From the NCBI RefSeq assembly GCF_030684315.1, contig NC_081387.1, positions 21,818,647 to 21,882,646 on the forward strand: a stretch of DNA of 64,000 nucleotides. The letters run 5' to 3'. Both the position numbers and the translations under genes were made by a program. Source of the stretch: Stegostoma tigrinum (Eukaryota). Positions 3,001-53,214 of this stretch are shown here, in pieces (position 1 is the stretch's first letter; each line of letters begins with the position of its first letter). The notes beneath the pieces are model-generated. The model was given only the letters and a program-made list of their open reading frames with translations, was not told the origin of the DNA and did not search any database.

Positions 3001-6000
3001 CCCTCTGCCCACACCAGTCTGCTTGTCCTTCACTCCCAACACTCTCCCACACCCCAAGGCACCTCCCCATGCAATTGCAGAAGATGTAACACCTGCCAGT
3101 TTACCTCCCCCTGATCCAGGGCCCCAGACATACTTTCCAGGTGAACAAGCTCTTTACCTGCACTTCACTTAATCTAGTCTACTGCAATTGCTGTTCACAG
3201 TGTGGTCTCTTCTACACTGGGGAGACGCAATGCAGACTGGGTGAAGGCTTTGCAGAACACATATGTTCTGTATGTAGAAATGACCTTGAACTTCCAATTG
3301 CCTGCCACCTCAACACCATGTTCCCTGGCCAACATGTTTGTCTCAGATCTGCTGTAGTGTCCCAGTCAGCCTCAGCACAAGCTCGAAGAATAGCATCTCA
3401 TTTTCAGCTTCAGGACATTGCAGCCTTTAGGCCTCAACATCAAGTTCAATAACTTTAGAGCCTCATTCCATCCTTCCATGTTTTTACCCGTCCCATACCA
3501 GGTCCTGTTAAGACATGGATTGCTTTTAGTACAGTCACCTTTTCCCACATATTGTCTGGTCCATTATCACATTATCTCGATTGCTATCATACAGCCCCTC
3601 CATTTCCTCCTACCCTCAGCACATGTTATCGCTTATTCAGCTTTTCTTCTGTTCTGGCCTGCTGTCTATAATCTCTTTCTTTACCTACCTCTTCCATACG
3701 TCTTGCTTTCTGGGCTCCAGCTCCACCAATCTCTGCACCTCCTACTCCCCCACTTCGAAGCCTGCCCCTGCACACCACTGCCCCCTCCCACCCCTCAAGC
3801 TAAACTTTGTCTTCAGTATCGATACTAGTTTTTCTGAACTGTTATCAATTCTGCTGAAGAGTCATCAGAGTGGAAGGGGTAATGATGCTGTCTTCCCATT
3901 GATTGTACCAGATCTGCTCAGTCGCTCCAGCAATTTCTGTTCTTTTTCCCAGTCTACCCCCAATTTCTCGTCACAACCAGAACTCTTCAGCCCTGGCGGT
4001 AAAATCTCCCCTGCACCCTCTCCATGTAATCACATCCCTGCTATAATGTGAATTCCAGAACTGTACACAAAATTTTCTCATAGGCTTTTGAATCTGGGGA
4101 ATATAATTCCACAGACTAAATGGCCCTCTAGGAGAAAACATTTTTGCTCATCATTGTCTTAATAGCAAGATCTCATTATGTCAAATAAAAGCGAAGCTTT
4201 GTGGTCAGTTAAATGCTATTGTAATGTTTATGAACTTTAAAATGTCCTATTTTTAACATTTTTTTATATGGGGTCACTTTGAAGGGCCAGAAGCCATTGC
4301 CATCCAAACTTGCCTGGTTATAGGTCGTTTCTGTCTGGATTGTTCGTCACTCATCCCTCCGAGTTTCTTCTGCCCTCCCCCCAACTTCTTGCCCTGACAG
4401 ATTGTGATCAAATTGTGGTTGCCCTCCAGAAAGTACAGATCAGCTGCGATCTGACTGAGTGGGGTAGGGAAGCCATGACGGGCTTTGCGGCCTACTCCCC
4501 TTCCTGATATCTCTGTGATTGCAGGTACAGGCCGCCAGCCCACGATTGAGATGGAGGGCCAAACGGGAGATGGCATCAGACTGGGCTGCAGATCCAAAGG
4601 GTGGTACCCAGAGCCACCCGTCCTGTGGTCGGATGGAGATGGAGAGAACGTAGCAGCCCAGCAGCAAACCACGTATCAGCCGGACACTCAGGAACTGCTC
4701 ACGGTCAGCAGCTTCATCGAGATCCCCAAGCAGTCCACCAACAAGTACACTTGTGTCATTAGTAACAAGATTCTGGAGGAGAAACAGGAGGCTCACATCC
4801 AGATTGCAGGTCAGTCACAGTGGGAGAAGACCTTCACAGTTACACAGCAAACTGGGAAGAAGGACGTGAATCTGATTGTAGGGAAATATATAAAACCCTG
4901 AGGAAACTCTGTGATGGAAACTGGCTCCTTGTGATCCTAGAGATAACTATCAAAAAAAAGCCCCTCAGAGCAATGGCTTGCCCTTCGTGGCAACCAAATG
5001 CATTTCACTGGGATGGAGATTGGGAAAGAGTGAGACGCTGTGATGGAGGGAGGAGGAGAGGGTGGGATAGAAAAAGAAGGAGAAGGTGTGATGGAGGGAG
5101 CAGGAGAGCATGTAATGCAGATTGGAGGGAGGCAGTGAAAGAAATGGAAGTGTGGCAGGAGTGGGTTGATTTGAGTTTGCAAAAAGCGAGTGTGGTCACG
5201 ACAGAGAGTGGGCGATGGAGGGAGCGGGAGATAATGGAATGGAAGTTGGAAGATGGAGATGGCTAATGGAGGAACGGGGCTGATGGAGGGAGAGGGGTGA
5301 TTGAAACTAGGTACATGGTGTGACAATAGGTTTGTGTTAACTCAAAAAGCTGAATGGTTCATTTTCTCACTCTTCTCACTCTCCCCTTTCTCTCTTCCCT
5401 GCCACCTCTGTCTCCCTATGTATCCTCTATTCTCGCTCTCCCTCTTTTCTTTCCTCTCAATTACTCTTTCTCTCTGCTCCTTTGCTCCATCTTCCCCTCC
5501 CTCTCCTCCTCCATCTCTCTTTCTCCCTCCTCCCCCTGTCCCTCTCCCCCCCATCCTCACCACCTTGCTCTTGCTATTTCTCACTTCTTTCTCCCTCTGT
5601 CTCTCCCTCCTCTCCCTTCCTTTCTCCCCTCTCCCTCTCTCTCCATACAGATTCCTTCTTCCCCTATGTTTCCCAATGGCTGATAGCGTTCTGGATCCTG
5701 TTTGCTCTGGTTATTGCAGCGGTCGCTCTTGCAGTGTGGTACCTTCGGAAATTACAGAATGAGATTCAAGGTGACATCCTTTGCACAAGCTCTAAGACCA
5801 TTTTCGAGAATTAACTATAAACAGAACCTTATTATTTGTTAACTGAAAATAAAACAGACAGACCTGGAAATACTCCACACATCAGGTGTAATCTGTGGAG
5901 AGAGACAGAGTTATTGTTTCAGGGGAATAAGAGTTTAATTTTTGTGAACTGTGTAATGAGCAGTGTAATGAGGAGCCTGTTCATTACAGGCTGACACTGA

Positions 6001-12000: not shown

Positions 12001-13407
12001 TAAAAAGTGACACATTTTATAAAGTATTGGGGGAAGGTGCTAATCTGTTCAGCTATCTTTGGCATGGAGATGCAGCAAAAACTGTCAATCTTTGTTCTCA
12101 TAACCTGGTTATTCAGGGAGATGCCATGAAAGTGCAGCAAGGAGTATTTACCCCTCTCATCCTGCACTCCCCAAACCGCTCCCCGCACTTGCTTCACTCT
12201 CTAAAGCACTGAAAATCCTTCTCCCATACCCACTCTTTCTTCCATCCCTCCCCATTCTCCCGACTCCCACACTTCCTTCCGCCTTGCCTTCCTGACCTCA
12301 TACCCCAGTGCCCCTTCTTGTCTCTCTCACCCCTCCCCTGTTTCCCTTGAATTGAATTGAATTAGCCCTTTGTCACGTCCTCAAATGAGTAAAGTAAAAA
12401 GCCTGAGGTAACATTTTGGGTCGATTCAGTTCCGAGCAGGACCTGAGCTGTGAACTCTGACTTCTGACTTCTCTCCATAGATGCTGCCAGACCACCTGAG
12501 CTTTTCCAGCAATTTCTGTTTATAGCAGTGAAAAGTTTATACGTTTTCACTTAGTGTACCATCTTAGATGCAATCCTAACTTACAGAACAGGCAAATGAA
12601 GAAAAGTTACATTACAGCTATACAAAGTATAACCATAGGTCAGAAAAAAAGGCAAAGCTAATAAGACAAATATCCCAGTCAGTCCTGAAACACTCTCAGC
12701 AGCAGACCAGCGCTGGGGTTGCCTCCATCTGGTCTGACCACTTGCTGCCCCTGTTCTCGCACCGGGCCACTACCGTCCCTGCTCCTTCACTCCCCTCCGT
12801 TCCCCTCTCCCTCCCTCCCTCCCTCTCACTGACGGTGTTATTTGATCTCTCCCCAGCTCCAGCCTCTCTGACTCTGGACCCGAACACAGCGCATCCCCGG
12901 CTCATCCTGTCTGAGGACCGGACCAGTGTGAGACTCGGATACAAACGGCAGCTGCTCCCTGACTCCCCGGAGAGATTTGATCTCTGGCAATGTATCCTGG
13001 GATCAGAGGGATTCACATCAGGGAGTCATTACTGGGAGGTGGAGGTGGGGGAGAAGATTATGTGGATTCTGGGAGTGGTCCGGGAGTCTGTCAGGAGGAA
13101 AGGGTGGATCAACGCGGTGGAGGAGACCGGATTCTGGATTGTGGCGCTGAGGCTCCAAAAAGGTTATTTTGCCTCCACCTCCCCCTCATGGACTGACCTC
13201 TCCCTGCATGTGAATCCCCGGAAGATCGGGGTTTTCCTGGACTACGAGGGTGGACAGGTGTCATTTTACAACGCGGTCACCATGTCCCATCTCCACACTT
13301 TCACCCACACTTTCACTGACAGGATCTTTCCCTTCTTCAATCCGGGACGGAATATTGACGGGAATAACTCCGGCCCGCTGACAATCTGCGGGATTAAAGG
13401 ACACTGA
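1..13407 (+). CDS. Butyrophilin-like gene 1 (5'-partial): IgV(part)-IgC-TM-5 x 27-nt exons-B30.2; join 1-97,4525-4809,5651-5770,6063-6089,7607-7633,9889-9915,10191-10217,10533-10559,12857-13407
   Basis: All junctions are GT-AG and phase 1. The joined length is 1188 nt, one open frame ending in TGA. Domain motifs are typical of the BTN family. Confidence 0.9.
1560..3945. mobile_element. Old Penelope-like element pair in inverted (tails-out) arrangement: minus arm about 1560-2460, plus arm about 2470-3945
   Basis: Decayed RT/GIY-YIG peptides (LVYC..C...YTGET...RLG..FAEH) on both strands, with PLE tail motifs at both outer ends. Confidence 0.75.
4525..4809 (+). CDS. Gene 1 IgC exon
   Basis: [14 protein letters not shown]...YTC, the BTN IgC signature; 285 nt; acceptor TTGCAG, donor GTCAGT. 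Confidence 0.93.
5651..5770 (+). CDS. Gene 1 transmembrane exon ([40 protein letters not shown])
   Basis: BTN-like FFP motif, hydrophobic helix and basic stop-transfer; follows a long polypyrimidine tract; 120 nt. Confidence 0.9.
6063..6089 (+). CDS. Gene 1 27-nt microexon (GLRKSEDNL)
   Basis: TTTTCCAG / GTAAGT; homologous to 30904-30930. Confidence 0.85.
6430..7007. mobile_element. Probable solo LTR-like repeat (related copy at about 36065-37530)
   Basis: The two copies share sequence and both end in ...CCATAACA; classification uncertain. Confidence 0.4.
7607..7633 (+). CDS. Gene 1 27-nt microexon (ERQRLLDVT)
   Basis: TTACAG / GTGAGT; flanks homologous to 35099-35125. Confidence 0.85.
9889..9915 (+). 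CDS. Gene 1 27-nt microexon (ECEKLQQKL)
   Basis: CTCTTTAG / GTAAGA; homologous to 39528-39554. Confidence 0.85.
   Translation, partial: NVRNFSRS
10191..10217 (+). CDS. Gene 1 27-nt microexon (EQWRPLVQS)
   Basis: CCTTTTAG / GTATGT; encodes the same peptide as 45390-45416. Confidence 0.88.
10533..10559 (+). CDS. Gene 1 27-nt microexon (EWNRIQSYA)
   Basis: TTTGCAG / GTAAAA; homologous to 46677-46703; resembles the W-containing pre-B30.2 exon of BTNs. Confidence 0.88.
10860..11525 (+). mobile_element. Penelope-like element fragment (GIY-YIG and 3' end)
   Basis: Peptide [19 protein letters not shown]...YISET...; absent at the homologous position in gene 2 (about 47030). Confidence 0.85.
11680..11982 (+). 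mobile_element. SINE-like element sharing its 5' body and 3' tail with the LINE at 31160-34675
   Basis: Matches 31215-31425 and 34600-34675. Confidence 0.65.
12857..13407 (+). CDS. Gene 1 terminal exon, B30.2 (PRY-SPRY) domain
   Basis: [44 protein letters not shown] and PFFNP motifs; acceptor CCCCAG. Confidence 0.95.
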
Positions 13408-13415
13408 CTGATCCA

Positions 13416-15021
13416 AGATAATGGGAACTGCAGATGCTGGAGAATCCAAAATAACAAAGTGTGAAGCTGGATGAACACAGCAGCCAAGCAGCATCTCAGG
13501 AGCACAAAAGCTGACGTTTTGGGCCTAGACCCTTCATCAGAGAGGGGAATGGGGAGAGGGTTCTGAAATAAATAGGGAGAGAGGGGGAGGTGGACTGAAG
13601 ATGGATAGAGGAGAAGATAGGTGCAGGGGAGAGTATGGGTTGTGAGATAGGGAGGGGATAGGTCAGTCCGGGGAGGACAGACAGGTCAAGGGGGCGGGAC
13701 GAGGTCAGTAGGAAGGAAATAGAGGTGCGGCTTGAGGTGGGAGCAGGGGATAGGTGAGAGGAACAACAGGTTAGGCAGGGTGGGACAAGCTGGGCTGGTT
13801 TTGGGATGCGGTGGGGGAAGGGGAGATTTTGAAGCTGGTGAAATCCACATTGATGCCATTGGGCTGCAGGGTTGCCAAGCGGAATGTGAGTTGCTGTTCC
13901 TGCAAACTTCGGGTGGCATCATTGTGGCACTGCAGGAGGCCCAGGATGGACACGTCATCAAAGGAATGGGAGGGGAAGTGGAAATGGTTCGCAACTGGGA
14001 GGTGCAGTTGTTTATTGCGAACCGAACGGAGGTGTTCTGCAAAGCGGTCCCCAAGCCTCCGCTTGGTTTCCCCAATGTAGAGGAAGCCACACCGTGTACA
14101 GCGGACGCAGTATACGACATTGGCAGATGTGCAGGTGAACATCTGCTTGATGGTGAAAGTCATCTTGGGCCCTGGGATTGGGTTGAGGGAGGAGGTGTGG
14201 GGGCAAGTGTAGTACTTCCTGCGGTTGCAGGGAAAGGTGCCGGGTGTGGTGGGGTTGGAGGTCAGTGTGGAGCGGACAAGGGAGTCGCGGAGAGAGTGAT
14301 CTCTCTGGAAGGCAGACAAGGGTGGGGATGGAAAAATGTCTTGGATGGTGGGGTCGGATTGTAGATGGTGGAAGTGTCGGAGGATGATGCATTGTAACCG
14401 GAGGTTGGTGGAGTGGTATGTGAGGACTAGGGGGATTTTCTTTGGGTGATTACTGAAGGGGCGGGGTGTGAGGGATGTGTTGCGGGAAATGTGGGAGACA
14501 CGGTCGAGGGTGTTCTCGACCACTGCAGGGGGGAGGTTGTGGCCCTTTAAGAACGAGGACATCTGGGATGCGAGGGAGTGAAATGACTCATCCTGGGAGC
14601 AGATGCGGTGGATGCGAATCCCCTATTCCCAATTCCTTCACCTCCGCCGCATCTGTATATTGGGGAAACCAAGCGGTGGCTTGGGGATTGCTTTGCAGAA
14701 CAGCTATGCTCGGTTCGCAGTGAACAACTGCACCTCCCAGTCACGAACCATTTCAACTCCCCCTCCCATTCCTTAGATGGCATGTCCATCATGGGCCTCC
14801 TGCAGTGCCACAATGATGCCACCCATAGGTTGCAGGAACAGCAACTCATATTCCGCTTGGGAACCCTGCAGCCCAATGTTATCAATGTGGATTTCACCAG
14901 CTTCAAAATCTTGCCTCCCCCCACTGCATCCCAAAACCTGCCTAGCTCATCCCCGCCTGCCTAACCTGTTGTTCCTCTCACCTATCCCCTCCTCACACCT
15001 CAAGTCGCACCTCCATTTCCT
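13416..15021. mobile_element. Penelope-like fold-back insertion (minus arm 13416-14612, plus arm 14618-15021) directly after the gene 1 stop codon
   Basis: RT C-terminus/GIY-YIG ORF 13771-14562(-); flanking direct repeat ACTGACTGATCCA at 13403-13415 and 15022-15034. Confidence 0.92.
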
Positions 15022-15395
15022 ACTGACTGATCCATCCCATAATTTCATCCAGTTCCCCCTGCCTTCTGCCAGCTGTGAACTGATGGGGTTCGGTCTCAGT
15101 TACAGGGGGAGAAAGAGGCCAGGTTAATATTCCGGGAATAAACCGTGTATCGGAACTGGGAGCTGAAAGATCAGCAAGGAGCTCTGTAGGGCTGGGGGAC
15201 AGATGGAGGGAGAGAGAAAAAAAAGAATCTCAATTGTAGAGCCGGACTTACTGGGTGGAATGAGCTGTGAGCTGCAGGAGCCCGGGGACCTCCTGTCTGT
15301 CATGTTGCTCCACAGGCAGGAGGTGGCGCTATATCTTTATTCAAACAAAAAAAGTCGAAGATTCGCTGGAACAAATGCAAAATTTCTCTAAAACA

Positions 15396-17138: not shown

Positions 17139-17487
17139 CATTGCTTGACCTCCACTGGAGAACTTTATCTAATTCTGGGCACGGCTGTTTGAGAAGGATG
17201 TGAATGGTGCATTGAATAGTTTTGAGAATGCAACACTTTGTTTGGAAGATAGATTGGAGAGGTAAGTTATTCTCCTGAAGATAGAGAAAATTTTGAGCAG
17301 ATTTACAGTATTTGATCAAAATTATCAGGTGTCTGGAAAGAATGGAGAAAGAATGAGGCTGTTTGTTTTGACAGAATTATCCATCACAAGAACAGATGGA
17401 CTCGAAGTGATTGGCAAATTAATCACAGGATTAATTGAAGGACGTGGAAACTTTGGAGATAGTGCAGAGAAGATTCACCAGGATGTT

Positions 17488-20400
17488 GTATCAGTGTTAA
17501 TGGGAACTGCAGATGCTGGAGAATCCAAGATAACAAAGTGTGGAGCTGGATGAACACAGCAGGCCAAGCAGTATCTTAGGAGCACAAAAGCTGACATTTC
17601 GGGCCTAGACCCTTCAAAAGAGAGGGGGATGGGGAGAGGGAACTGGAATAAATAGGGAGAGAGGGGGAGGCGGTCCAAAGATGGAGAGAAAACAAGATAG
17701 GGAGAGAGGAGAGTATCGGTGGGGAGGTAGGGAGGGGATAGGTCAGTCCAGGAAAGATGGACAGGTCAAGGAGGCGGGATGAGGTTAGTAGGTAGGAAAT
17801 GGAGGTGCGGCTTGAGGTGGGATGAAGGGATGGTTGAGAGGAAGAACAGGTTAGGGAAGCAGAGACAGGCTGGGTTGGTTTTGGGATGCAGTGTGTGGAG
17901 GGGACGAGCTGGGCTGGTTTTGTGATACAGTGGGAGGCAGGGAAGAACTGGGCTGGTTTTGGGATGTAGTAGGGGAAGGGGAGATTTTGAAGCTTGTGAA
18001 GTCCACGTTGATACCATTGGGCTGCAGGGTTCCCAAGCGGAATATGAGTTGCTGTTCCTGCAACCTTCGGGTGGCACCATTGTGGCACTGCAGGAGGCCC
18101 ATGATGGACATGTCGTCTGAGGAATGGGAGGGGGAGTTAAAATGGTTCGCGACTGGGAGGTGCAGTTGTTTGTTGCGAACTGAGCGGAGGTGTTCTGCAA
18201 AGCGGTCCGCAAGCCTCCACTTGGTTTCCCCAATGTAGAGGAAGCCACACCGGGTGCAATGGATACAATATACCACATTGGCAGATGTGCAGGTGAACAT
18301 CTGTTTGATATGGAAGGTCATCCTGGGTCCTGGGATGGGGGTGAGGGAGGAGGTGTGGGGGCAAGTGTAGCATTTCCTGCGGTTGCAGGGGAAGGTGCTG
18401 GGTGTGATGGAGTTGGAGGGGAGTGTGGAGCGGACAAGGGAGTCGCGGAGAGAGTGGTCTCTCCGGAAGGCAGACAAGGGTGTGAATGGGAAAACGGCTT
18501 GGGTGGTGGGGTCGGATTGTAGATGGCGGAAGTGTCGGAGGATGATATGTTGTATCCGGAGGTTGGTGGGGTGGTATGTGAGGACGAGAGGTATCCTCTG
18601 GGGGTGGTTGTGGCGTGGGCAGGGTGTGAGGGATGTGTTGCGGGAAGCACGGTCAAGGGCGTTCTCGACCACTGTGGGGGGAAAGTTGCGGTCCTGGAAG
18701 AACGTGGACATCTGGGATATGCGGGAGTGGAATGCCTCATCGTGGGAGCAGATGCGGTGGAGGCGGAGGAATTGGGAATAGGGGATGGAATTTTTGCAGG
18801 AGTGTGGGTGGGAGGAGGTGTATTTTAGGTAGTTGTGGGAGTCAGTAGGCTTGAAATGGACATCAGTTTCTAGCTGGTTACCTGAGATGGAGACTGAGAG
18901 GTCCAGGAAGGTGAGGGATGTGCTGGAGATGGCCCAGGTGAACTGAAGGTTGGGGTGGAAGGTGTTGGTGAAGTGGATGAACTGTTCGAGCTCCTCTGGG
19001 GAGCAAGAGGCGGTGCCGATACAGGCATCAATGTAACGGAGGAAGAGGTGGGGTTTGGGGCGTGTGTAGGTGTGGAAGGGGGACTGTTCCACGTATTACA
19101 CTGTTCAACGCACCTACACAGTGGAATACGTGGAACAGTTCCTCTTCCGCACCTACACACGCCCCAAACCCCATCTCTTCCTCCGTTACCTTGATGACTA
19201 TATCCGCGCCACCTCTTGCTCCCCAGAGGAGCTCGAACAGTTCATCCACTTCACCAACACCTTCCACCCCAACCTCAAGTTCACCTGGGCCATCTCCAAC
19301 ACATTCCTCACCTTCCTGGACCTCTCAGTCTCCATCTCAGGTAACAAGCTAGAAACTGATGTCCATTTCAAGCCTACTGACTCCCACAACTACCTAAAAT
19401 ACACCTCCTCCCACCCACCCTCCCGCAAAATTTCCATCCCCTATTCCCAATTCCCCCACCTCCACCGCATCTGTCCCAGGATGAGGCATTCCACTCCCGC
19501 ATATCCCAGATGTCCACGTTCTTCCAGGACCACAACTTTCCACCCACAGTGGTCGAGAACGGCCTTGACCGCATCTCCCACATTTCCCGCAACACATCCC
19601 TCACACCCCACCCCTGCCACAATCGCCCCCAGAGGTTACCCCTCGTCCTCACATACCACCCCACCAATCTCCGGATACAACATATCATCCTCCGACACTT
19701 CCGCCATCTACAATCTAACCCCACCACCCAAGCCATTTTTCCATTCACACCCTTGTCTGCCGTCCGGAGAGTCCACTCTCTCCGTGACTCCCTTGTCCAC
19801 TCCACACTCCCCTCCAACCCCACCATACCTGGCACCTTCCCCTGCAACCGCAGGAAGTGCTACACTTGCCCCCACACCTCCTTCCTCACCCCCATCCCAG
19901 GACCCAGGATGACCTTCCATATCAAACAGATGTTCACCTGTACATCAGCCAACATGGTATATTGTTTCCACTGCACCTGGTGTGGCTTCCTCTGCATTGG
20001 GGAAACCAAGTGGAGGCTTGGGGACCGCTTTGCAGAACACCTCCGCTCGGTTCGCAACAAACAACTGCACCTCCCAGTCGCGACCCATTTCCACTCCCCC
20101 TCCCATTCCTCAGACGACATGTCCATCATGGGCCTCCTGCAGTGCCACAATGATGCCACCCGAAGGTTGCAAGAACAGCAGCTCATATTCCGCTTGGGAA
20201 CCCTGCAGCCCAATGGTATCAACGTGGACTTCACAAGCTTCAAAATCTCCCCTTCCCCTACTACATCCCAAAACCAGCCCAGTTCTTCCCTGCCCCCCAC
20301 TGCATCACAAAACTAGCCCAGCTCGTCCCCTCCACACACTGCATCCCAAAACCAACCCAGCCTGTCTCTGCTTCCCTAACCTGTTCTTCCCCTCACCCAT

Positions 20401-20701
20401 CCCTTCATCCCACCTCAAGCCGCACCTCCATTTCCTACCTACTGACCTCATCCCGCCTCCTTGACCTGTCCATCTTTCCTGGACTGACCTATCCCCTCCC
20501 TACTTCCCCACCCATACTCTCCACTCTCCCTATCTTGTTTTCTCTCCATCTTTGGACCGCCTCCCCCTCTCTCCCTATTTATTCCAGTTCTCTCTCCCCA
20601 TCCCCCTCTCTGATGAAGGGTCTCGGCCGGAAATGTCAGCTTTTGTGCTCCTGGGATGCTGCTTGGCCTGCTGTGTTCATCCAGCTCCACACTTTGTTAT
20701 C
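17488..20701. mobile_element. 3.2-kb palindromic Penelope-like insertion (two arms of about 1.6 kb) inside a CR1 fragment
   Basis: RT (LRYIDA / LRYLDD, FLDL) and GIY-YIG ORFs on both strands; TSD TTCACCAGGATGTT at 17474-17487 and 20702-20715. Confidence 0.95.
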
Positions 20702-21119
20702 TTCACCAGGATGTTCCCTGGACTCCAGGGCATTGGCAATGAGGAAAAGTTAAAAAGACTAGGATTATTTTCACTGGAAAGATGATGGTTGAGAGGAGAC
20801 CTGACAGAGGTCTATAAAAGTATGAGAGGTATAGATAGGGTGATAGTCCAGAGGTTTCACCCCCCCTCCCCGTGTTGAAGTTTCAATCTCAAGGTGGCAG
20901 AGGTTCAAGGTGAGGGCAGAGCGAAAGTTTGAGGGAGATGTGCGAGGAAAGTTTTTCATGCAGAGAGAAAGTGATGGAAAGTAATTTGAGCGGGACTCCC
21001 GATGGGGCAGGAATTTGAACAAACATTTCAATATTGTAATGTGACAGAGGGTGCAGGAGGACTGGAGATAAACTGGCTAAAACTTAGCCAAAATTCTCTG
21101 CATTAGACACTCAAACGCG

Positions 21120-21276
21120 GCCGTCCTTCCGCTGTTCTTGAAGTTAACGCCCTCAAACTTTCCGCTGAAACACACGCAGAAGGTGAAGCGGAGGTGACAT
21201 CAAATCGAAACTGAAAGGCTCTCTCCCCTGTTTCTGTGCGTCGCCCCCTTCCTGAATTTTGGATTTTCTTTTCTGG
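21120..21276 (+). promoter_or_regulatory. Putative promoter / non-coding exon 1 of gene 2, with ISRE GAAACTGAAA (21207-21216) and ETS-like and kB-like motifs
   Basis: CpG-richer segment; donor GTGAGT at 21277; the motifs are conserved in the inverted paralogous block at 58755-58900. Confidence 0.55.
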
Positions 21277-24649: not shown

Positions 24650-27600
24650 GTACATGTGGATGTTCCTACCCAAGTGTTGCTGTTCTAGTTGACTGCCTAA
24701 TGTGCCTGTTGATTGCTGACTCTCCCCAGTGTCTATGTTATTAATGTAAGTTCTCTGGTAATATTTTAGACAGCTACAATATTTTATTCCCTGGATCTGC
24801 TGATGCTGGATTTCTGAATTTACAGAATGTTTCTCCTGCTCCACATTCTCGTTTGGATCTATCATGGTAGGGAAATAAATTTGAAAGATAACAGAAACCT
24901 GTTTTCCCTTTCATATTTTGTTGTTGGGATCACTTGACAAGACATTGCACCCTGAACTAAAATTCCCTCTGTTTCTCACATTTTGTGTTTCTCTATTCCT
25001 CATTTCTATTTTTAGGCCCTCTGTCTCTAATCTCCATCTCCATACCTCGCTGTCCCTCTGCCTCCCCCTCTCTGCCCCTCTATCCCTCTCTGCCTGTCTC
25101 TCTGTTCCTCCCTCTCCATCTCTATCCCCTGCTACCTCTCTCTCTCTCGCTCCCTCTTTCTCAGTTAAAAACATTACTATATAGCTATAATAACCTGAGT
25201 GATGAGCAATGGATCTGATTCCCCCTCCAGTGGCTTTTACAGAAGCAGTGGTAGATTTTGCGGTGACAGGATCACTTGAACCCACAGTTGGGGTTTTCGG
25301 GAGCAACATTGTCCTGGAATGTCAATTGGTGCCAGCCAGAATCCCACAGAATTTGGAAGTTCGCTGGATCAATGTGGCATATGGCTACAACTCACCTGTC
25401 CACATGTACAAGGAGGGAGCGGATGATTTGACACACCAGCCGTCAGCCTACAGAGGCCGGACTGAACTATTTCTCGACAAAGTGGCAGAGGGGAATGTCT
25501 CCCTTAGGCTCAAGGATGTCCGAATCTCCGACAGGGGACAGTACAAGTGCTTTGTGGCATCTGATGAAAAACACGGGGAGTTTAAGCTCATGCTGAATGT
25601 GACAGGTTAGTGAACATTTTGGAAACACCCTATTTGACCTGCTCAGTGATGAGTTTGTTGAGATAAAGGACACTGACCTAGACCTTGATAGAATGCAAAC
25701 AGTTCGAGACTCCTACAGGATCAACACCGAGAGGCTGTTTCTGCTGACGGAGGAATCTAGAGCATGGGTGGACAGTCTCAGGACAAGGAAATGATCACGT
25801 AGCACTGAGACAGGGAGGAATTTCTTCAGCCTGAGGGTGTTTAACCTATGGGTCTCATTGCCGCAAAGGGCTGTGGAGGCCAAGTCACTAAGTGAATTTA
25901 AAACAGAGATTTATGGGTTCTTGACTGGCCAGGGGATCAAGGGTTATGGGGAGAAGGCAGTGAAACATATCAGCTATGATTAAATCGTCCAACAGACATG
26001 ATGGATCAAATGGCCTAAATTTGCTCATGTATCTTAGGGTCCAACACTTAGCCCGTAGACCTGTGTGCTTTGGCATTGCAAGTGTACATCTAAATATTTC
26101 TTACATGTTTTGAGGATTTCTGCCTCTACCACCCTTACAGAGTTCTGGGTTCCCACCACCCTCTGAGTGAAAACGTTTTTCCTCACATATCCTTGAAACC
26201 TCCTACCCCTTCCCTTAAATTGTGTCCGTGGGCCATTGATCACTCCACCAATGGAAAAAAAACCCAACATTCCTTCCTGCCTGCCTTGTCTTTGCTCCTC
26301 ATAATTTAGTGCATCTTCTAATCATTGTGTTTGGCCCCCTCTGTTATTGCCTCTGCTCGAAGGAAAGGCAGTCCAGTCTGTCCAATCTCTCTTCATAACT
26401 GAAACTCGTCAGCCCAGGCAACATTCTGGTAGTTCTGCTGTGCATTCTCTCCAGTGCAAAATGATATCCCTCCTATAACTTAGATTCCAGAAAGGCAAAC
26501 AGAATGTCTGAGTGGTTGTTTTGGATGTGGGGAATATAATTCTGCAGACTAAGTGACCCTATAAGAGAAAACATGTTTCTTCATCTCTGCCTTAACTGTA
26601 AAACCATGTACTTTTAACTAAAAGCAAGGTATTGTAGATGCTGGAAACCTGAAATAAAGACAGGAAGTGCTGGAGATATTCAACAGGCCTACCAGCATCC
26701 ATGGAGAGAGAAACCAAGTTAAGATTTCATGAGTAATATGGCTTTTCAAAGAGGGAAATATTCGGAGGATTCCATCCATTCTTCCCATCTGGGGTTGAGA
26801 CTTTACTTCTTTGAAACCTTGGTCTAGAGTTTTGGTCTTCAGCATAATTGCCAGTCCAGTCTTAACTTAGTCTTAAAAAAATTGTGTCTTTAGTTTGAGT
26901 TGAATTACTTAAGTTTCAGGAAAATCCATTTGTGATTTGTGAAACACTAAACAGCTCATGGGCACCTGCAAATATGTTTAGTCACTGAAATTTTGAACAG
27001 AGACTGGAGTCCACCTTCTGAGGTTATGTGCTTTTTATTGGAATGTTAGTGGTGTAGACTATTTTCTAAATGGGGAAAACGTTTGGAAATCTGAAGTACA
27101 AAGGACCATCGGTGTCCAAGTCAGGATTCTCTTAAAGTTAACATCCAAGTTCAACCGGCAGTTTGGAAGGCAAATGTAATGTTGGCATTCATTTCAAGAG
27201 GATTAGAATACAAGAGTAGAGATGTGCTGCTGAGGCTGAATATGGCTCTGCTCAGACCTTATTTCGAATATTGTATGGGGTTTTAGGCCCAATATCGAAG
27301 GAAGAATGTGCTGGCATTGGATGGGGCTCCAGAGGACGATATAATGATGACCATGGGGATGAAGAACTTTTCAAATGAGGAGCAGTTGAGGACCCTGGGT
27401 TTGTACTCGGTGAAGTTTGCAATGGTGAGGGTGGGGTTGATGTCTGATTGAAACTTACAGAATACTGACAGGCCTGGATAGAATTTCTACTTGTAGAGGA
27501 GAGTAGGACCCAAGGGCTCAGCCTCAGAGTGAAAGCATGACTGTTTAGAACTGAGACATGGAGGCATTTCTTCAGCCAGTGTGCGGTTAATCTGTGGAAC

Positions 27601-30600
27601 TCATTGTCACATAGGGATTTGGAGGCCACATCATTGAGTGCATTTAAAATAGAGATAGATAGACTCATAGGGAGATCAAAGATTATGGAGAGAAGACAAG
27701 AGAATGGGGTTGGGGAACATACCAGCCATGACTGAATGTAGTGCAGAGTCAATGGGCTGAATGACCTAATCCTGCTCCTAAATCTTATGATCTTTTGGAG
27801 TATTTCAGATTCAAATCTGATTGAAGTTACTTTGGAACAATGCCAGAGAACAATTTTCTGGTGCATGCAGGTCAGCTTCATAGTGAATTAAATGTTTCTG
27901 CAATATTTATGAGATTGTAAAAGGTCCTGTTCGAGAGTTTTAAAAAACAATGTTGATCCTGTAGCCTCTTTGAAGGCCCAAAAATGAGGGCCATTTGTAG
28001 AAATGTTGTCCTCATGAATAATTTGACTATGGGTCATTCCTGTCTGGACTGTCCCTCTCTCATCTCTCTGAGTGCGGTGTCTTCTGCCCTCCCCCAACTT
28101 CTTGCCCTGACAGATTGTGATCAAATTGTGGTTGCCCTCTAGAAAGTACAGGTCAGCTGCAATCTGACCGAGTGGTGTAAAGAGGCCAGGACAGGCCTTG
28201 CGGCCTACTCCCCTTCCTGATGTCTCTGTGATTGCAGGTACAGGCCGTCAGCCCACGATTGAGATGGAGGGCCAAACGGGGGATGGCATCAGACTGGGCT
28301 GCAGATCCAAAGGGTGGTACCCAGAGCCACCCGTGCTATGGACAGACGGAGATGGAGAGAACGTAGCAGCCCAGCAGCAAACCACGTACCAGCCGGACAC
28401 TCAGGAACTGCTCACGGTCAGCAGCTTCATCGAGATCCCCAAGCAGTCCACCAACAAGTACACTTGTGTCATTAATAACCTGATTCTGGAGGAGAAACAG
28501 GAGGCATACATCCGGATTGCAGGTCGGTCACAGTGGGAGAGGACCTTTACAGATACACAGCAAACTGGGGGAAAGGACGTGAATCTGATTGTAGAGAAAT
28601 ATATAAAATCCCGAGGAAACTCTGTGATTGAAACTGGCTCCTTGTGGCCCTGTTTAGCCAGAAGTGTCAAAGAGAGGCCCCTCATGGCTTTGGCTTGCCT
28701 CTTGTGGCAACAAAAGGCATTTCACAGGAGGGAGCGAGAGAGTGATGGAGTTTGAGGAAGAGTGTGAAGCTGCAATAGAGGGAGAAGGAGTAGATGTGAT
28801 GCAGGTTCAGGGGAGGGAGTGAGTGTGATAGAGGGAGAGGGTTGAACGGAGTTTTCTAAAAGGGAGAGATGTGATGAAGAGAGAGAGTGTGGGTGATGAG
28901 AGGAGAGGGAGATAGTGGAATGGAGGCTGGGAAGAGGAAGACGAGTAATGGAGGGTGAAGGGCTGATGAAGGGGGAGGGGTGATTGAATTTGGATACATA
29001 AAGGGCAAGGTCTTTTCCCCAGGGTAGAGCAGTCCAAAATCAGAGGGCATAGGTTTAAGGTGAGAGGGAAAATACTTAAATGGGACCCAAAGGGCAATGT
29101 TTCATGAGAGGATGATGCAAGTATGGAATGAGCTGTCAGAGGAGGTGGTGGAGGCTGGTACAATTACAATATTCAAAAGACATTTGGATGTGTCTATGTT
29201 TCCATGCTGTACATTTCTATGACTCCTTATCTTTCTAAAGGGTGTGACAATGGGTTTGTGTTAACTTAAACAGTTGAATGGTTCATTTTCTCACTCTTTC
29301 TCTCCTCACTGTCCACCTCTTCTTTCCCTCAAACCTGATCCCTCTCTCTCTCTCCTCTCCCTTCTCACCCTCTCATTCTTCCACCCCTCCATCTTGCCCC
29401 CTCTCCTCCTCAAACTCTTATTTTCTCTTTCTTTCTCTCTCTGTCTCTCTCCCTCATTCTCCATCCTTCCCCTCTCCTTCTTTCCTCCATGTTTATGCCT
29501 TCCCCCCTCTCACTGTCCAATTTGTCTCTCCCTCTCTTGTCACTTCCTGCTCTGTCTCCCTTCTCTCTCTCTCCATCTTGCTTACTCCCTCTTCCCCCCA
29601 CTTTCCCTCACAAGCTTCTCCCCTTCTTTTCCTCCTCCCTCTCATTCCCTCTCTCTTCCCCCACTCTCCCTAACACCCACATAATCTTTTCCCTCTCCCT
29701 CTCCTTCTCCCACTCTCTCTCCTCTCTGTGTCCCTCTCTTTCCGCTCCCCCCTCCCCCCGCTGCTTCCTTGCCTTCCTCTCTCTCCCTTCCCTTTCTCTC
29801 CACACAGATTCCTTCTTCCCACATGTTTCCGGATGGCAGATATGATTCTGGATCCTGTTTGTTCTGATTGTTGGAGTCATCGCTGTCGCAGTGTGGTACC
29901 TTCGGAAATTACAGAATGAGATTCATGGTGACAACCTCTGCTCAAACACTGACTACTTTTCTTTAAGAATAGAATACTGTGTACAATTCTGGTCACCCTT
30001 CTGTAGGATGGATGCTGTTAAACTTAAGAGGTTCCAGAAAGGATTTACAAAGATGTTGCCACGACCGGAGGGTTCAAATTATAGGGAGAGGCTGAATATG
30101 CTGGGACGTTTTACCCTGCAGTGTCAGTGGCAGGGGCCATCTTATAGGAGCTTATAAAATCGTGAGGGAAACGGATAGTGTGAATAGCTAAGGTTTTTTT
30201 CTGAGGGTGGGGGAGTCCAAAATTAGAGGCCATTGGTTTAAGGTGAGACGGTAAAGATTTGAAAGGGACCCAAGGGGTAAATTTTTCACACAGAGGGTGG
30301 TGCATGTATGGAATGAGCTGCCAGAGGAAGTGGTAGAGACTGGTACAATTACAACATTTAAAAGGCATCTGGATGGGTACATGAGTAGGAAGAGCTTAGA
30401 GGGAGGAGCAAATTACAGCAGATGCTGGAATTTGTACTGAAAACAAAAAGTGCTGGAGATCAGGCAGATCACAGCGGGTCAGGCAGCATCCATGGAGAGA
30501 AAGCAAGCTAACATTTTGAGTCTAGATGACGCTTCATCAGATTATCATCATTTAGATATGATGATAAATGGGACTAGGTCAGATTGGGATGTATGGTCAG

Positions 30601-33600: not shown

Positions 33601-36600
33601 GGGACAAAATCTTCAGTGGTTACAGTCATACCTGACACATAGGAAGATGGTTGCAGTCATTGGAGGTCAATCATCTCAGCTCCAGGACATCTCTGCAGGA
33701 GTTCCTCAGGGTAGTGTCCTTGGCCTAACCATTTTCAACTGATTCATCAATGACCTTCCCACCATCACCAGGTCAGAGGTAGGGATGTTCACTGATGATT
33801 GCACAATATACAGCACCATTCGTGACTCCTCAAACACTGAAGCAGCCCATGTTCAAATGCAACAAGATCTGGATAATACTCAGGCTTGGGCTGACAAGTA
33901 GCAAGTGATATTCGCACAACAGAAATGCCAGTCTATAATCATCACCAATAAGAGACAATCTAACCACTGTCCCTTGACATTCAATGATGTTACCATCACT
34001 GAATCCCCTACTATCATCATCCTGGGTGTTATCATTGACCACAGACTCAACTGGACTTGCTGCACAAACACAGTGGTTAGAAGAGCAGGTCAGAACCTAG
34101 GAATACTGTGGTGAGTAACTCACCTCCTGACTCCTCAAAGCCTGTCCACCATCACAAAGCACAAGTCAGGAGTGGGAAGGAATACTCCTCACTTGCCCCT
34201 GGATGAGTGCAGCCCCAATAACACTGAAGAACCTTGACACTATCCAGGACAAAGCAACCCGCTGGAATTTCACTACATCCACAAGCAACCACATACTCCA
34301 CCACTAATGCTCAGAAACAGCAGTGTATACTGTCTACAAGATGCACTGCAGAAATGCACCAAAGATCCTCAGACAGCACCTTCCAAACCCACAACCACTT
34401 CCATCCAGAAGGACAAGGGCAGCAGATATATGGCTACACCACCACCTCAAGTTTCCCTCCAGCCACTCACCATCCTGACTTGGAAATATATCGCCGCTCC
34501 TTCACTGTTGCTGGGTCAAAATCCTGGAATTCCCTCCTGAATGGCATTGTGGGACAACTCACAGAAGGAGATTCAAGAAGGCAGCTCACCACCAGCTTCT
34601 CAAGGGCAACTAGGGATGGACAAGAAATGCTGGCCAGCCAGTGATACCCATATCCCATAAATGAATAGAAAAAAAACATGCAACCCCATGCTCCAAGACT
34701 CTCTATCCCTTTCTGTCTCTTCCACTCTCACAACTCCCTCTCTTTTGCCCCCCTTGCTGCCCCTTCCACCCTCTCTTTCGCCCCTCTTTCCTCCCCCTTC
34801 CCCCCATCTCTTTCCGTCACATCTGTTTTTCCCCACCTATCTCTTCTCCCCTTCCCACACTTCTTCCCTCCTTTTCCCTTTCTCCCCCCTCTCTCTTCCA
34901 TCCTCCCTCTGCCCCTTCTTCTCCTCCTCCATCCCTCCTCCTGCTTTCTCCCTCCTCCTCCTCTCTCCCTCTGATCTTACAGTGTGAGAGTGGGCAATGT
35001 GATCTAGGTGATGTATGCTGCAATGGGAATGGGACAGGGTTCAGTATGAGAGGTGAAGGGCTGTTGCTGATTTAATGTTTTCTTTTGATCTGTTACAGAA
35101 TATCTAAAGCTGATGGAAGAAGTCAGTGAGTAACCATTCAAAGCAGAGACTTAAACCTGATGGGTGTGGGAAACCCAGTGATGTGGACATATCATCACAT
35201 CTGGGTGAAGAACATTTGTGAAACTGTAATCCCAGGTCTGGTGATGTAATGGATTACAAATAGATTGGCTTTGAAGGTCTCCATGGCATGAATGATAAGA
35301 AAGATTTGCATTTCTATGACAGCTTTCACATTCTGAGGATATCCCAAAGTTCTTTATTGAAAGTGATGTACATAACAATACAAGGACTGGGAGCAAGAGT
35401 TAGCCTCTTGACCTGAGCTGTTTCACTGTTCAGTCTGACCATGATGAATCTACTTCCCTGCACTATCCCATGTAAAGACTCTATCATTTTATTTTTCTGT
35501 ATTTTGGATCGATGAGGTAAAGAATTCTTAAGATTCATAACCCTTTGAGTGCGTATATTCTCTTCATCACAGACTGAATGGGAAAGATGGGTTTCAGAAT
35601 GGCCAGTGAGTTAGCTTTGAGAATCTAAGGAGACTGTCAATATAGTGCAATATTATAATGGTCAGTTTCTGTCTGTTGCAAAGGTGAACTCTATGTCATG
35701 GGTGAACTAAGGTTCCATCATGAACTTCTGGTATCAAGTCACAATCCATGACTTGGCACAAAGCTGTTGCTGACACTTCAGCACATAGCTGAGGGAGTGC
35801 TACGCTGTCAGAGGCACTGTCTTTTACGTCAGACTTTTAATGCAAGACATCACATGCTTTTGAATGTTTCGTAGCTCTTAGATGTATCCCTAGGAGGAAC
35901 AGAGAACTTCTTCCCAGAGTCTGAGTCAATATTTACCACTCACAAGAATCTGTTGATTTGGTAATTGTCCTGGTTACTGTTTGTGGAATCTTGCTGTGCA
36001 CAGATTAGTTGCTGCAGAAGGAAACAGTACAGAAGAGGCCTTTCAGTCCATCTGTTCTGTTTCCTTTGTGATCATATATGCTTTTGAGAGGGATTTGGTT
36101 TGTCTTGGTTCTTCTCAGGTAGGACTGTTGTAAATCTGGTGACAGGGTGTCTACTCCTGTAAAGCAGAGGAAGTAGCTATGAGATTATTGTTATATTATA
36201 TTAGGCAAAAGAAGCATGAATGTGTGGAGAGAGACAATGGGAACTGCAGATGCTGGAGAATCCAAGATAACAATGTGTGAAGCTGGATGAACACAGGGAC
36301 AGGGATGAGCTGGGCTGGTTTTGGGATGCAGTGGTATCCACTGTACCCAGTGTGGCTTCCTCTACATTGGGGAAACCAAGCGGAGGCTTGGGGACCGCTT
36401 TGCAGAATACTTCCACTCGGTTCGCAATAAACAACTGCACCTCCCAGTCGCAAACCATTTTAACTCCCCCTCCCATTCCTTAGACGATATGTTCATCATG
36501 GGCCTCCTGCAGTGCCACAATGATGCCACCCGAAGGTTGCAGGAACAGCAACTCATATTCCACTTGGGAACCCTGCAGTCTAATGGTTTCAATGTGGACT

Positions 36601-39600
36601 TCACAATCTTCAAAATGTCCTCTTCCCCCACCGCATCCCAAAACCAGCCCAGCTCGTCCCCTCCCCCCACCGCATCCCAAAACCAGCCCAGCTTGTTCCC
36701 GCCTCCCTAATCTGTTCTTCCTCTCACCTATCCCCTGCTCCCACCTCAAGCCACACCTCCATTTCCTTCCTACTAACTTCATCCCGCCTCCTTGACCTGT
36801 CCGTCTTACCTGGACTGACCTATCCCCTCCCTATCTCCCCACCTATACTCTCCTCTCCGCCTATCTTCTCTCCCTCTTCGGTCCGCCTCCCCCTCTCTCC
36901 CTATTTATTTCAGAACCTCTCCCCATCCCCCTCTCTGATGAAGGGTCTAGGCCTGAAATGTCAGCTTTTGTGCTCCTGAGATGCTGCTTGTCCTGCTGTG
37001 TTCATCCAGTTTCACATTTTGTTGTCATGAATGTGTGGAGTCAGGCTCACAGAGACCAAGGGTTATAGTCTTAGTTTTGCTTTCACTTGTTGAAGTTGGG
37101 TTTTGGAATGAAGCTGCTATATACAGTCTCTCTCTTTAGCGCTGCAAATGCTTGAGTTTTTTCTCTGCTGCTAGATTCATTCTGTCGGTGCTCCTTCTCC
37201 TGGACTGGAGGACATAGCAAGTGAGGGAAATCTGTTTTACTGAACGTGCCTTTGCAAAGGGTGTGTTTATGGGGCACTGCCATATTAGAACATTTGATGA
37301 GTTGTAGTGAAATGATATATTATTTTACTAAGCCTTTTAGGACAATTATTCTTTGTTTGTATTTTAGCTGTTGTAAAGGAATAAAGTGTGTTTAGCTTAA
37401 AGCCTAGTAATTTGAACAATCAAATCACATCTTCAAAGTAGTGCCTTACCTTGCCTTGAAATAAGTTAAAAATTAAGGTCTGTGCTATCTCTTTGATATA
37501 TTTGAGGGGGTTTGCGTCTGGTCCATAACACATTAATTTGACAGTACTGTTTCTACAAGACACTGGAGGACACACTGTCACTGTTATTTAAATCCAAATT
37601 AATCCTCCGTATTTCTCACATTGATTTTTTTTAAACTTTCAGAGCAAGATAAAATGAAGACAGATAAAGGTAAGTGATCAGAAACCCAGGGGTGGTGGAG
37701 ATGGTTCCATTAAGACCCTGATTGTGTGTCTGTGTGTCCGCGCAGTTCACAGCACATCCAAGACTCGGGTCAATTTCAAACAGAGATAACAAATGGTCAT
37801 TTGATTTGTCATCTCTCTGAGGTGTTTTCACTTTTTTTTTGTAGAGTATATAAGACTTCACCAGGAGATTGGTAAGAACCCGAAACCAATTGGATAAAGG
37901 TGATGGAAGAGAGGGAGTTGTGGATGGATTAACCCCACAGTAAGAGAATGGGAAAGCGCTGGGAAAGCTGGATGGTAACTCTGACTGAGACCAGACCCTA
38001 GTAGGAGAGAAGCAGTTTTGGAACAACGTGGAACTCATGCAGATCCTCCAATGGGTTTGCCGTAACATGGGTGATGGGTGACGGAGTGGGTTTGTGCTTC
38101 TGTCATTCTGGGATTAAGAGTAAGACAAGAGTTGACCTGGTTACTATCAACTCTGAATCACATTGTTGTTTGTTTTTCATTTCAGAGATGGCTAAGCAAA
38201 AAGGGAAACAAGGTGAGTTATGAGAACACACATTATTTGGATTGTAATGTTTTATTTCAGTGTCAGAATGTCTGAACACAATTTAACAGATTTGTAAAAA
38301 AAACTGCCTTATCACAGATTGTTCCATTAAAACCAGCACCAAATTATAATGCCTTCCTGTGAATATGTGTGAAGTGGGTGAGCTAATTCAGCCAATTCTT
38401 CAACGTTCACCGATATCAGAACTGGGGTCCTCGAGAAGCTGTTTTTCCAGGAATTTCCTGAGCTGATATAAACAGATCTGCGGATATCTGGAAATACATG
38501 CCTGTTGAAATGAGCAGGTTTCAATATCAACAGCCTTTAGCTATTTATTAATAGTGCAATGAGACCACTAGCTTCACCAATCCCTAAAGTGCTCGCTGAT
38601 CAAAACCGTCAGATATGTGATTCAACAAATCATATGTCTTTTTTTTATTTGGGCATGTGTTTGTGAATCAGTCGTTGATTTCACAATTGATTCTCTTCAC
38701 AGTTCTACAAATAACCAAATAAAGTAACATCTACCATATTTCAGTATTTTCTAGTTATTTCTAATCTTCGACATTCTGATGTGAGGAATACAAACCTCAC
38801 TACAGCAGGAGAACAATGCATTCCTGACAATACACAAATTCATCTAATTCTACACACCCTGACTGGGTTCTGACATTTTAACCTGTAAACTTGTGGCCAT
38901 CCAACACTCTGCTGCCCTTGTCTTCACTCATCCTAAGTTCCACTCACCTGCTTACTGACCCACATTAGCTCCTCATTAAACAGTGTCTCCATTCCTAATT
39001 TCTCAGTCAAGTCTTGCAGTCCCTTCATGTCCTTGCCCTCTCTACTCTGCAACTCTGAGGTTCCTGTGCTCCTTTAATTGTGGCCTTTTGCACGCCAAAA
39101 ATTGTAATGTCCCTTCATTGGAGAATGTAATTTCAGTTGCCTCAGTTCCAAACTCTCCTCCTGCATCCTCATCTCACTTTCATCCTTAAAACACATCATA
39201 AAAACGTCCCTGTTTGATAAGCTTTTAGTTACCTGACATGTTTTTATTTATAATATTTGTAGTATTTTGAGATGTTGTTGAAGAAAAACAGCCACTTTGT
39301 GAATGTAAATTGTTGTTGTGTAAAATCCGTGCAGTGTATTACCTGACAAGTGAGCAATGTCACACAAGGAGCATTCCTATAACAATTTCTATTAACTGCT
39401 TTTTTTTTCTAAACTATATTGTCTTTCAAAAAATCTCTGATTGGGAAATGAATTTCAGATTTTCAGTGACTTTTTTGATATAATCAATGATCTGGTTTTA
39501 AATTGCCTTGTCTGTTTTTCTCTTCAGAATGTAAGATGCTTCAGCAGGAGTTTGGTAAGAGATTATTTCCAAATCATAAACACTCTGGGATTGGGTTTTC

Positions 39601-52635: not shown

Positions 52636-52663
52636 GACGTTTCGGGCCTAGACCCTTCATCAG
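52636..52663 (-). ncRNA. Minimal hammerhead ribozyme motif
   Basis: Intact core on the minus strand. Confidence 0.65.
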
Positions 52664-52754
52664 AGAGGGGGATGGGGTGAGGGTTTTGGAATAAATAGGG
52701 TCCGCCTCCCCCTCTCTCCCTGTTTATTCCAGTTCCCTCTCCCCATCCCCCTCT

Positions 52755-52782
52755 CTGATGAAGGGTCTAGGCCCGAAACGTC
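52755..52782 (+). ncRNA. Minimal hammerhead ribozyme motif
   Basis: CTGATGAAGGGTCTAGGCCCGAAACGTC. Confidence 0.65.
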
Positions 52783-53214
52783 AGCTTTTGTGCTCCTGAG
52801 ATGCTGCCTGGCCTGCTGTGTTCCTCCAGCTCCACACTTTGTCATCGTACTTTAGCAAGGATAGATTATCTGCTGAAGTAAGGAGACCCGTATTAAATGC
52901 TCAAGCAGCAGGGTTCGAGTTTCTGATTGTGAGGCTTCTGTGATGTAGGTATACCTCAAATCCATTTCAATTAAAACAAAAACTTGTACAATTTAATATG
53001 AACACTGGGCAGCAGCGGCCGTGCCCAGATACACCCCCACAATCATGCAAATCCGCCTTCCGCCTGTGGACTAACATGACAGCAGGAAGGTTCCCGGGTT
53101 CCTGCAGCTCACAGTTCATTCTGCCGAGGAAGTCCCTCTATACTGCTGAGCTTCTATTTGTTTCTTCTCTACCTCTCCTCCTTTCTCCCAGCACTATAGA
53201 GCTCCTTGTTGATC

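What the first reader, a model, noticed from the sequence alone, without database searches (positions are those of the whole stretch)
17474..20715. 3.2-kb near-perfect palindrome made by a single Penelope-like insertion event
Seen: two arms of about 1.6 kb meet at a loop of about 13 nt (19105-19117) that repeats a nearby motif (CGCACCTAC). One 14-bp TSD bounds the whole structure and splits a CR1 fragment that rejoins cleanly. Both arms share private variants (SHNYLKY, FPFTPLSA) absent from the copy at 60-61 kb (SHSYLEY, FPSPPLSA). Inference: the first cDNA strand folded back and was itself copied before integration. Inverted PLE structures are known from Drosophila and rotifers, but this is an unusually clean case. 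It sits about 400 bp upstream of the putative gene 2 promoter and could extrude a cruciform or be fragile.
Basis: partly seen in the sequence, partly recalled or inferred. Interest (0 to 1): 0.7.

Follow-up and report, generated by a model that had tools for sequence, protein, structure and literature searches.

The report
Twin-armed Penelope insertion, arms later matched
This 3.2-kb mirror-image repeat is real but is the usual landing pattern of a very common Penelope-type jumping gene in this genome, likely made by copying the element's RNA from both cut ends of the target, and the rare mutations its two arms share likely come largely from later short-patch copying between the arms rather than from a fold-back at birth.

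Summary
Observation confirmed: two 1.6-kb arms (94.5% alike), one 14-bp TSD splitting a CR1 fragment, and arm-shared variants that are unique or nearly unique in the genome. It is not unusual: 92 head-to-head pairs lie in 1.29 Mb fetched, 32 in 720 kb of unselected DNA, some with longer arms; 54 have one tailed and one tail-less end, as here. The layout is published, and this scan has noted it many times elsewhere. Two TSD-bounded pairs need two separately made cDNAs, which favours priming from both target ends over pure fold-back. Special here: both arms stop at the same base (1 of 23 long pairs) around a partly mirrored 31-nt filler, so a fold-back step at the centre stays possible. Shared variants do not prove it: strongly asymmetric pairs share as many. 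Side result not found in my searches: arm differences are halved within 10 nt of shared rare variants (50 seen, 99 expected; unrelated pairs show none), and sharing rises with arm length and falls with spacer, pointing to short-patch arm-to-arm conversion. A small replicate was underpowered, unrelated inverted neighbours show little sharing, and a polishing artefact is not excluded.

The parts
17474..17487 (.). Left copy of the 14-bp target-site duplication, inside a CR1-like ORF2 3' fragment
17488..17492 (.). 5 nt between TSD and tail end that do not match the family reference
17493..17526 (-). About 35-nt tail, present on the left arm only (family end near reference position 2793)
   Evidence: tail concept PMC11167929, PMC8557442
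17493..19095 (-). Left arm: 5'-truncated PLE copy (reference 1222-2793); open 414-aa piece from late RT to GIY-YIG at 17851-19095, no start or promoter
   Evidence: GIY-YIG E 0.0018, below Pfam cut-off
19096..19126 (.). 31-nt non-family filler at the centre: 9 nt mirrored on each side, 13-nt loop 19105-19117; pieces templated from the adjacent element sequence; its 13-mer matches the family allele at a site where both arms now carry the rare allele
19127..20703 (+). Right arm: 5'-truncated PLE copy (reference 1222-2759), truncated at the same base as the left arm, 1-nt frameshift near 19473, ends at the family's tail-less site
20610..20637 (+). Hammerhead-like core (CTGATGA ... GAAA) in the pseudo-LTR; mirror copy in the left arm near 17593-17620 has a damaged core
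   Evidence: sequence; Rfam reported no hammerhead
20702..20715 (.). Right copy of the TSD (first 2 nt shared with the element end)
21207..21226 (+). Context only: ISRE-like GAAACTGAAAG in the putative promoter of a butyrophilin-like gene (IgV exon 25245-25604), about 490 nt from the insertion
   Evidence: ISRE and butyrophilin labels are recalled

Best explanation
This is one 5'-truncated insertion of an endonuclease-bearing Penelope-like retrotransposon with a Neptune-type linker, likely made when both ends of a 14-nt staggered cut primed copying of the element RNA at its two fixed start sites, the two copies likely being joined at a templated filler, and its arms were likely part-homogenised afterwards by short-patch copying. 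Shown: anatomy, TSD, one tail end plus one tail-less end, family-wide recurrence, shared rare variants and their local pattern. Inferred: (1) the GIY-YIG domain cuts both strands about 14 nt apart; (2) each 3'-OH primes a cDNA, one at the tail end and one about 35 nt further in; (3) both stopped at the same base here, either at a common broken RNA end or because the centre was later evened out by template switching; (4) the RT or a repair polymerase re-copied short neighbouring pieces to make the filler and join the ends; (5) over time mismatches in well-paired stretches of a transient arm-to-arm hairpin were copied across in patches of about 20 nt. The structure has no shown function.
For: 54 of 92 head-to-head pairs have exactly one tail end and one tail-less end, against 4 with two short and 3 with two tailed ends (31 have an unclassified end); 42 of the 54 have a 12-18 bp TSD. 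Either arm can be the longer one (15 against 7 among long pairs) and offsets of 23 long pairs run from 0 to 1971 nt. L045 and L061 are TSD-bounded and each arm holds element sequence missing from the other, which one folded strand cannot give. In vitro a Poseidon PLE cleaves and extends both strands and starts RT at two internal sites that bound the tail (PMC11167929). Conversion: arm differences within 10 nt of shared rare variants 50 seen against 98.9 expected in 26 pairs; ratio 0.56 within 11 nt, bootstrap over pairs 0.38-0.72, while 1930 anchors in unrelated pairs give 0.99-1.06; permutation p 0.001; sharing rises with arm overlap (p 8e-7) and falls with spacer (p 0.0014) in 35 pairs; shared variants look unselected (53 missense, 21 silent, 3 stop) and do not track symmetry (rho -0.25, p 0.22).
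Against: Base-exact symmetry occurs in only 1 of 23 long pairs, and near-symmetric pairs are somewhat in excess (4 of 26 within 50 nt against 1.25 expected, p 0.03); with the mirrored 9 nt this is most simply read as a fold-back. For this locus alone the depletion is not significant (6 seen, 9.7 expected). The fresh set of 9 pairs gave 7 against 11.2 (p 0.13). Nine inverted neighbours that I judged by eye to be separate insertions share only 7 rare variants in 7,873 nt, L167 0 in 1,539, so conversion is not general to inverted copies; a common template at birth explains that contrast equally well. Common shared variants also show a small dip within 5 nt (0.81). The step-like 10-nt width matches a 21-letter word, as a polishing artefact might. 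The regression ignores overdispersion and the long pairs were picked by hand.
Confidence: 0.55

Rival explanations
1. Hybrid: both target ends were primed at the two fixed sites, but only one cDNA grew long; its 3' end folded back at the centre, copied most of its own length and then annealed to the short second cDNA. Some shared variants would date from birth.
For: Same truncation base in both arms, a mirrored non-family 9-mer unique in the genome and filler pieces in both orientations follow naturally from repeated snap-back; it keeps both canonical ends. All 4 base-symmetric pairs with a filler of 4 nt or more have mirrored filler edges.
Against: Mirrored edges can also arise later by template switching, which homogenises and extends inverted-repeat arms (PMC13100816, passages). 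It does not predict the depletion near shared variants or the arm-length dependence. L045 and L061 show that the family makes two long cDNAs.
Confidence: 0.27
2. Pure fold-back: one cDNA starting at the tail end folded back, was copied, and the endonuclease resolved the copy at the tail-less site.
For: Symmetric centre; self-priming was proposed for PLE palindromes (PMC3846280 Discussion); the tail was ascribed to endonuclease resolution (PMC8557442, passages).
Against: The tail-bearing arm is the shorter one in 15 of 23 long pairs, so it cannot be the only template there; L045 and L061 cannot be fold-backs; both strands are extended in vitro (PMC11167929).
Confidence: 0.1
3. The shared variants (or the exact centre) are assembly or polishing artefacts of a palindrome, or come wholly from a private, decayed source copy with no later conversion.
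For: The depleted window is about 21 nt wide; separately inserted inverted neighbours share little; no raw long reads were available.
Against: Arms differ at 87 sites plus gaps, unlike a read fold-back; word-based polishing would not single out the partner arm or depend on spacer; no sibling or source copy turned up; a source copy does not explain local depletion.
Confidence: 0.08

Closest known systems
Insertion units of endonuclease-bearing Penelope-like elements with an inverted 5'-truncated copy, one-sided 30-40 nt tail and TSD (PMC8557442 passages and Fig. 2 legend; PMC3846280 passages and Discussion)
   Same: Head-to-head inverted copy, tail on one end only, TSD around the whole unit, palindromic junction, C-terminal GIY-YIG, hammerhead-like pseudo-LTR.
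   Different: Here both arms are 1.6 kb and truncated at one base; TSDs are 12-18 bp (8-10 bp in the rotifer examples read); the layout occurs about once per 22 kb of unselected DNA.
Poseidon PAc of Anolis carolinensis (PMC11167929, parts 1-2 of 4 read: abstract, main text, start of methods)
   Same: Two RT start sites bounding the tail; both strands cut and extended; ATG inside the hammerhead core with the predicted cut about 26 nt downstream.
   Different: This family carries the Cx4CxxC linker of Neptune/Nematis; the paper does not derive the inverted arm from two-ended priming in the text I read.
Arm-to-arm homogenisation of inverted repeats: yeast template switching (PMC13100816, passages), C. 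elegans long inverted repeats (PMC1803023, abstract), human Y palindrome conversion (PMC3723533, search listing only)
   Same: Arms share derived variants; template switching can homogenise and extend arms.
   Different: Here kilobase arms stay about 5% apart, the signal is only about 20 nt wide, extends over 1 kb from the centre and scales with arm length, in thousands of retroelement-born autosomal palindromes.

Membership tests
Endonuclease-bearing Penelope-like element | Reverse transcriptase followed by a C-terminal GIY-YIG endonuclease in one ORF | tested here: met
   Natural copy L091: RVT_1 E 1.4e-5; left arm: GIY-YIG E 0.0018 (both below Pfam's cut-offs); order RT then EN in the 791-aa family frame and in L091.
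Endonuclease-bearing Penelope-like element | Inverted 5'-truncated copy, one-sided 30-40 nt tail and TSD | tested here: met
Endonuclease-bearing Penelope-like element | Hammerhead ribozyme motif in the pseudo-LTR | tested here: inconclusive
   Core CTGATGA ... GAAAC GTC present in the family; Rfam scan at E up to 1 gave no hammerhead; cleavage not testable.
Neptune/Nematis clades | Cx2-5CxxC zinc-finger-like linker between RT and EN (PMC8557442) | tested here: met
   CNRRKCYTC upstream of the GIY-YIG in both arms.
Neptune/Nematis clades | Placement in an RT tree with reference PLEs | not tested
   No reference PLE set was fetched.
Fold-back (self-primed) insertion | Second arm is a subset copy of the first and shares its first-strand errors | tested here: inconclusive
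   The right arm is a subset of the left here, but shared variants are equally common in asymmetric pairs and first-strand errors cannot be told from later conversion.
Fragile cruciform-forming palindrome | Extrusion or breakage in vivo | not testable with these tools
   Single strands fold stably, which any such repeat does; in yeast 94% identity lowers rearrangement about 15-fold against 100% (PMC10164571, passages).

The most novel reading that the evidence does not exclude
Thousands of Penelope-born kilobase palindromes in this genome undergo slow arm-to-arm correction in patches of about 20 nt, at a rate that rises with arm length and falls with spacer length: a genome-wide natural record of hairpin mismatch repair in a vertebrate germ line, which also makes arm divergence understate insertion age by roughly a quarter in long pairs.
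Probability: 0.5. Interest if true: 0.6.

Novelty: new member of a known kind. Interest (0 to 1): 0.33.

Why it matters
The palindrome itself is an ordinary product of a known class. Two points are of use. First, the family's ends and two pairs that cannot be fold-backs support two-ended priming for a step of PLE integration that the papers read call unresolved; other notes of this scan reached the same idea. Second, if the short-patch homogenisation is biological, these born-identical arms give a large, dated, selection-free test set for how imperfect hairpins are repaired in a vertebrate germ line, and they warn that shared arm variants cannot be read as birth marks or arm divergence as age.

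Tried and rejected
Independent reads: four runs hold the right flank (two samples of one study, possibly including the assembly's source). Short contigs run from the flank through the TSD 16-23 letters into the element in three runs, below the tool's 31-letter rule for a bridge, so a hint only. No contig covers 19101-19118 in four runs and none spans either stretch; a hole proves nothing (hairpin dropout, filtering or a different centre are all possible); two joints skipping 75-80 nt near the centre in one run could not be assigned to this locus. No RNA holder listed. The empty site was not looked for in reads. Rfam gave only generic miRNA-hairpin matches at the centre, all below gathering score. 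The higher identity of the outer arm half is mostly CpG density. A-to-G editing or APOBEC-type bias in shared variants: not enriched. Shared deletions between arms: 2 single-base cases in 26 pairs. Shared variants do not cluster with each other (8 against 6.4 within 10 nt). The open 414-aa frame of the left arm is expected by chance about one time in three (my estimate). Two independent insertions back to back: rejected by the single TSD and the clean CR1 join. Rows left out: L005, L018, L020, L026 from the alignment (short or interrupted); reference positions 2381-2469 (tandem repeat) from the depletion tests; fragments under 84-86% identity. Thirty requested stretches did not exist. Searches for prior reports of arm conversion in PLE palindromes (scan look-up) found none; most subscription journals and bioRxiv supplements are not searchable, and supplements of PMC11167929 were not opened.

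Full report
Observation. The structure is in the assembly as described. The reverse complement of 17488-19104 aligns to 19118-20703 with 1506 matches and 87 mismatches (94.5%), a 1-nt and a 9-nt gap. The 14-mer TTCACCAGGATGTT lies at 17474 and 20702 and nowhere else in the window; removing the insert restores a CR1-like ORF2 end, 25 of 34 hits spanning the junction. The genome is 3.2 Gb in 835 contigs; the label 'shark' comes from earlier notes of the scan and from recall, not from a test.

What it is. Each arm is the 3' part of one retroelement family with more than 6,800 candidate copies for the inner segment. A family reference built from long copies has a 791-aa frame from RT to GIY-YIG; a natural copy gives RVT_1 (E 1.4e-5) and the left arm GIY-YIG (E 0.0018), both under Pfam's cut-offs. 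The linker CNRRKCYTC is the Cx2-5CxxC motif of Neptune/Nematis (PMC8557442, passages). The 3' end holds a hammerhead-like core that Rfam did not call. Family 3' ends fall in two clusters, near reference 2758 and 2793. The left arm ends at the second (35-nt tail), the right at the first.

How common. In 1.29 Mb fetched (seven blocks, 720 kb unselected including the window, and 77 hit-centred loci) there are 92 head-to-head pairs; 32 are in the unselected DNA, where 45 of 68 fragments that carry the 3' end at 88% identity or more sit in such pairs. Of the 92, 54 have one tailed and one tail-less end, 4 two short, 3 two tailed, 31 an unclassified end; 49 have a 12-18 bp TSD. L006 and L030 have overlapping arms of about 2 kb. 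The layout is published (PMC8557442 passages; PMC3846280 passages and Discussion), and earlier notes of this scan describe it many times, one for another 3.2-kb case.

How it is made. In vitro, a Poseidon PLE cuts and extends both strands and starts reverse transcription at two internal sites that bound the tail (PMC11167929, abstract and main text). In this family the offsets between the two truncation points of 23 long pairs run from 0 to 1971 nt, and the tail-less arm is the longer in 15, the tailed arm in 7. L045 and L061 are bounded by TSDs and each arm contains element sequence absent from the other: two separately made cDNAs are needed. Two-ended priming is therefore the best family model (inference). 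The focal copy is the one long pair with zero offset: both arms begin at TACGTG, the family's upstream sequence is missing from both, and a non-family 9-mer is mirrored, unique in the genome. The 31-nt filler is made of re-copied neighbouring pieces. A snap-back of one long cDNA that then meets a short second cDNA explains this neatly; so does run-off of both cDNAs at one broken RNA end, or later template switching that evens out a centre (described in yeast, PMC13100816, passages). The data do not separate these for this locus.

Shared variants. The arms are closer to each other (94.6%) than to any of 37 copies (best 94.2% and 93.2%), clearly so in the outer part (97% against 94%) but not in the inner part (94% against 95%). 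They share 10 rare variants in 1,528 nt (6.5 per kb) against a mean of 0.29 per kb in 6,915 unrelated pairs, and two motifs are unique or nearly so genome-wide. But L063, with arms offset by 1,050 nt, shares 17 in 1,581, and L053 13 in 1,575, each including a stop codon; sharing does not track symmetry. So the variants do not show fold-back.

Side result. If shared variants dated from birth, later mutations would fall around them at the normal rate. They do not: within 10 nt of 101 shared rare sites in 26 hand-picked long pairs there are 50 arm differences against 98.9 expected, and no deficit beyond 10 nt; within 11 nt the ratio is 0.56, bootstrap 0.38-0.72, and 1,930 anchors in unrelated pairs give about 1.0; permutation p 0.001. 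In 35 pairs (113 sites in 27,823 nt) sharing per base rises about in proportion to arm overlap (p 8e-7) and falls with spacer (p 0.0014, overdispersion not modelled). About a quarter of rare variants in long pairs are shared. The filler's 13-mer carries the family allele where both arms now have the rare one, a weak hint in the same direction because that base has a second possible template. Against: the focal pair alone gives 6 against 9.7; nine fresh pairs gave 7 against 11.2, p 0.13; nine separately inserted inverted neighbours share 7 in 7,873 nt; common shared variants show a small dip within 5 nt; the width equals a 21-letter word, so polishing must be excluded with raw reads. I found no report of this for PLE palindromes; arm homogenisation as such is known.

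Consequences. The insertion lies about 490 nt from an ISRE-like motif before a butyrophilin-like gene (labels recalled). Nothing here shows an effect on it. In yeast, 94% identity lowers inverted-repeat rearrangement about 15-fold but not to zero (PMC10164571, passages); closely spaced inverted Alu pairs are depleted in humans (PMC3215922, passages), whereas these pairs are abundant here and this one has lasted long enough to reach 5.5% arm divergence. Fragility is untested.

Verdict. Real, single-event, ordinary for its family; fold-back possible at the centre but not shown; the most interesting lead is the short-patch arm conversion, at even odds.

Papers: PMC11167929 parts 1-2 of 4; PMC3846280 passages and Discussion; PMC8557442, PMC4209133, PMC13100816, PMC10164571, PMC3215922 and bioRxiv 10.64898/2026.07.22.740005 passages; PMC1803023 abstract; PMC3723533 search listing only.

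Noticed in passing
window 4479-4898, 12580-13404, 25245-25604, 28168-28752, 29846-29920, 49922-50509: Tandem butyrophilin-like genes on the + strand (IgV, IgC, transmembrane and B30.2-like exons); ISRE-like motif at 21207.
   Followed up: partly
L091:6039-9698 (minus strand, about 60 kb left of the window): Near-full-length young copy of the family with one frameshift; several copies elsewhere differ from it by only 0.7-3%, so a subfamily was active recently.
   Followed up: partly
L021:2759-3012: A piece of about 51 nt repeated five times at the 5' junction of a copy, suggesting repeated re-copying at the template end.
   Followed up: no
L167:2929-8757: A palindromic insertion landed inside an older copy of the same family with a 15-bp TSD, giving a natural control pair of unrelated inverted arms.
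   Followed up: yes
window 13417-15038, 36230-37032, 48030-48215, 52536-52846, 54822-56476: Other head-to-head pairs of the same family in the window, of graded size.
   Followed up: yes
short pairs genome-wide, reference 2660-2673: Short pairs start in a tight cluster just before the hammerhead core, not at its predicted cut site, which suggests a transcript start there.
   Followed up: no
window 41849-43416: Tandem array with 61-nt and 30-nt units, 94% and 90% matches.
   Followed up: no
window 20726: C>G difference in the right flank: all depth in one sample, about half in the other.
   Followed up: no
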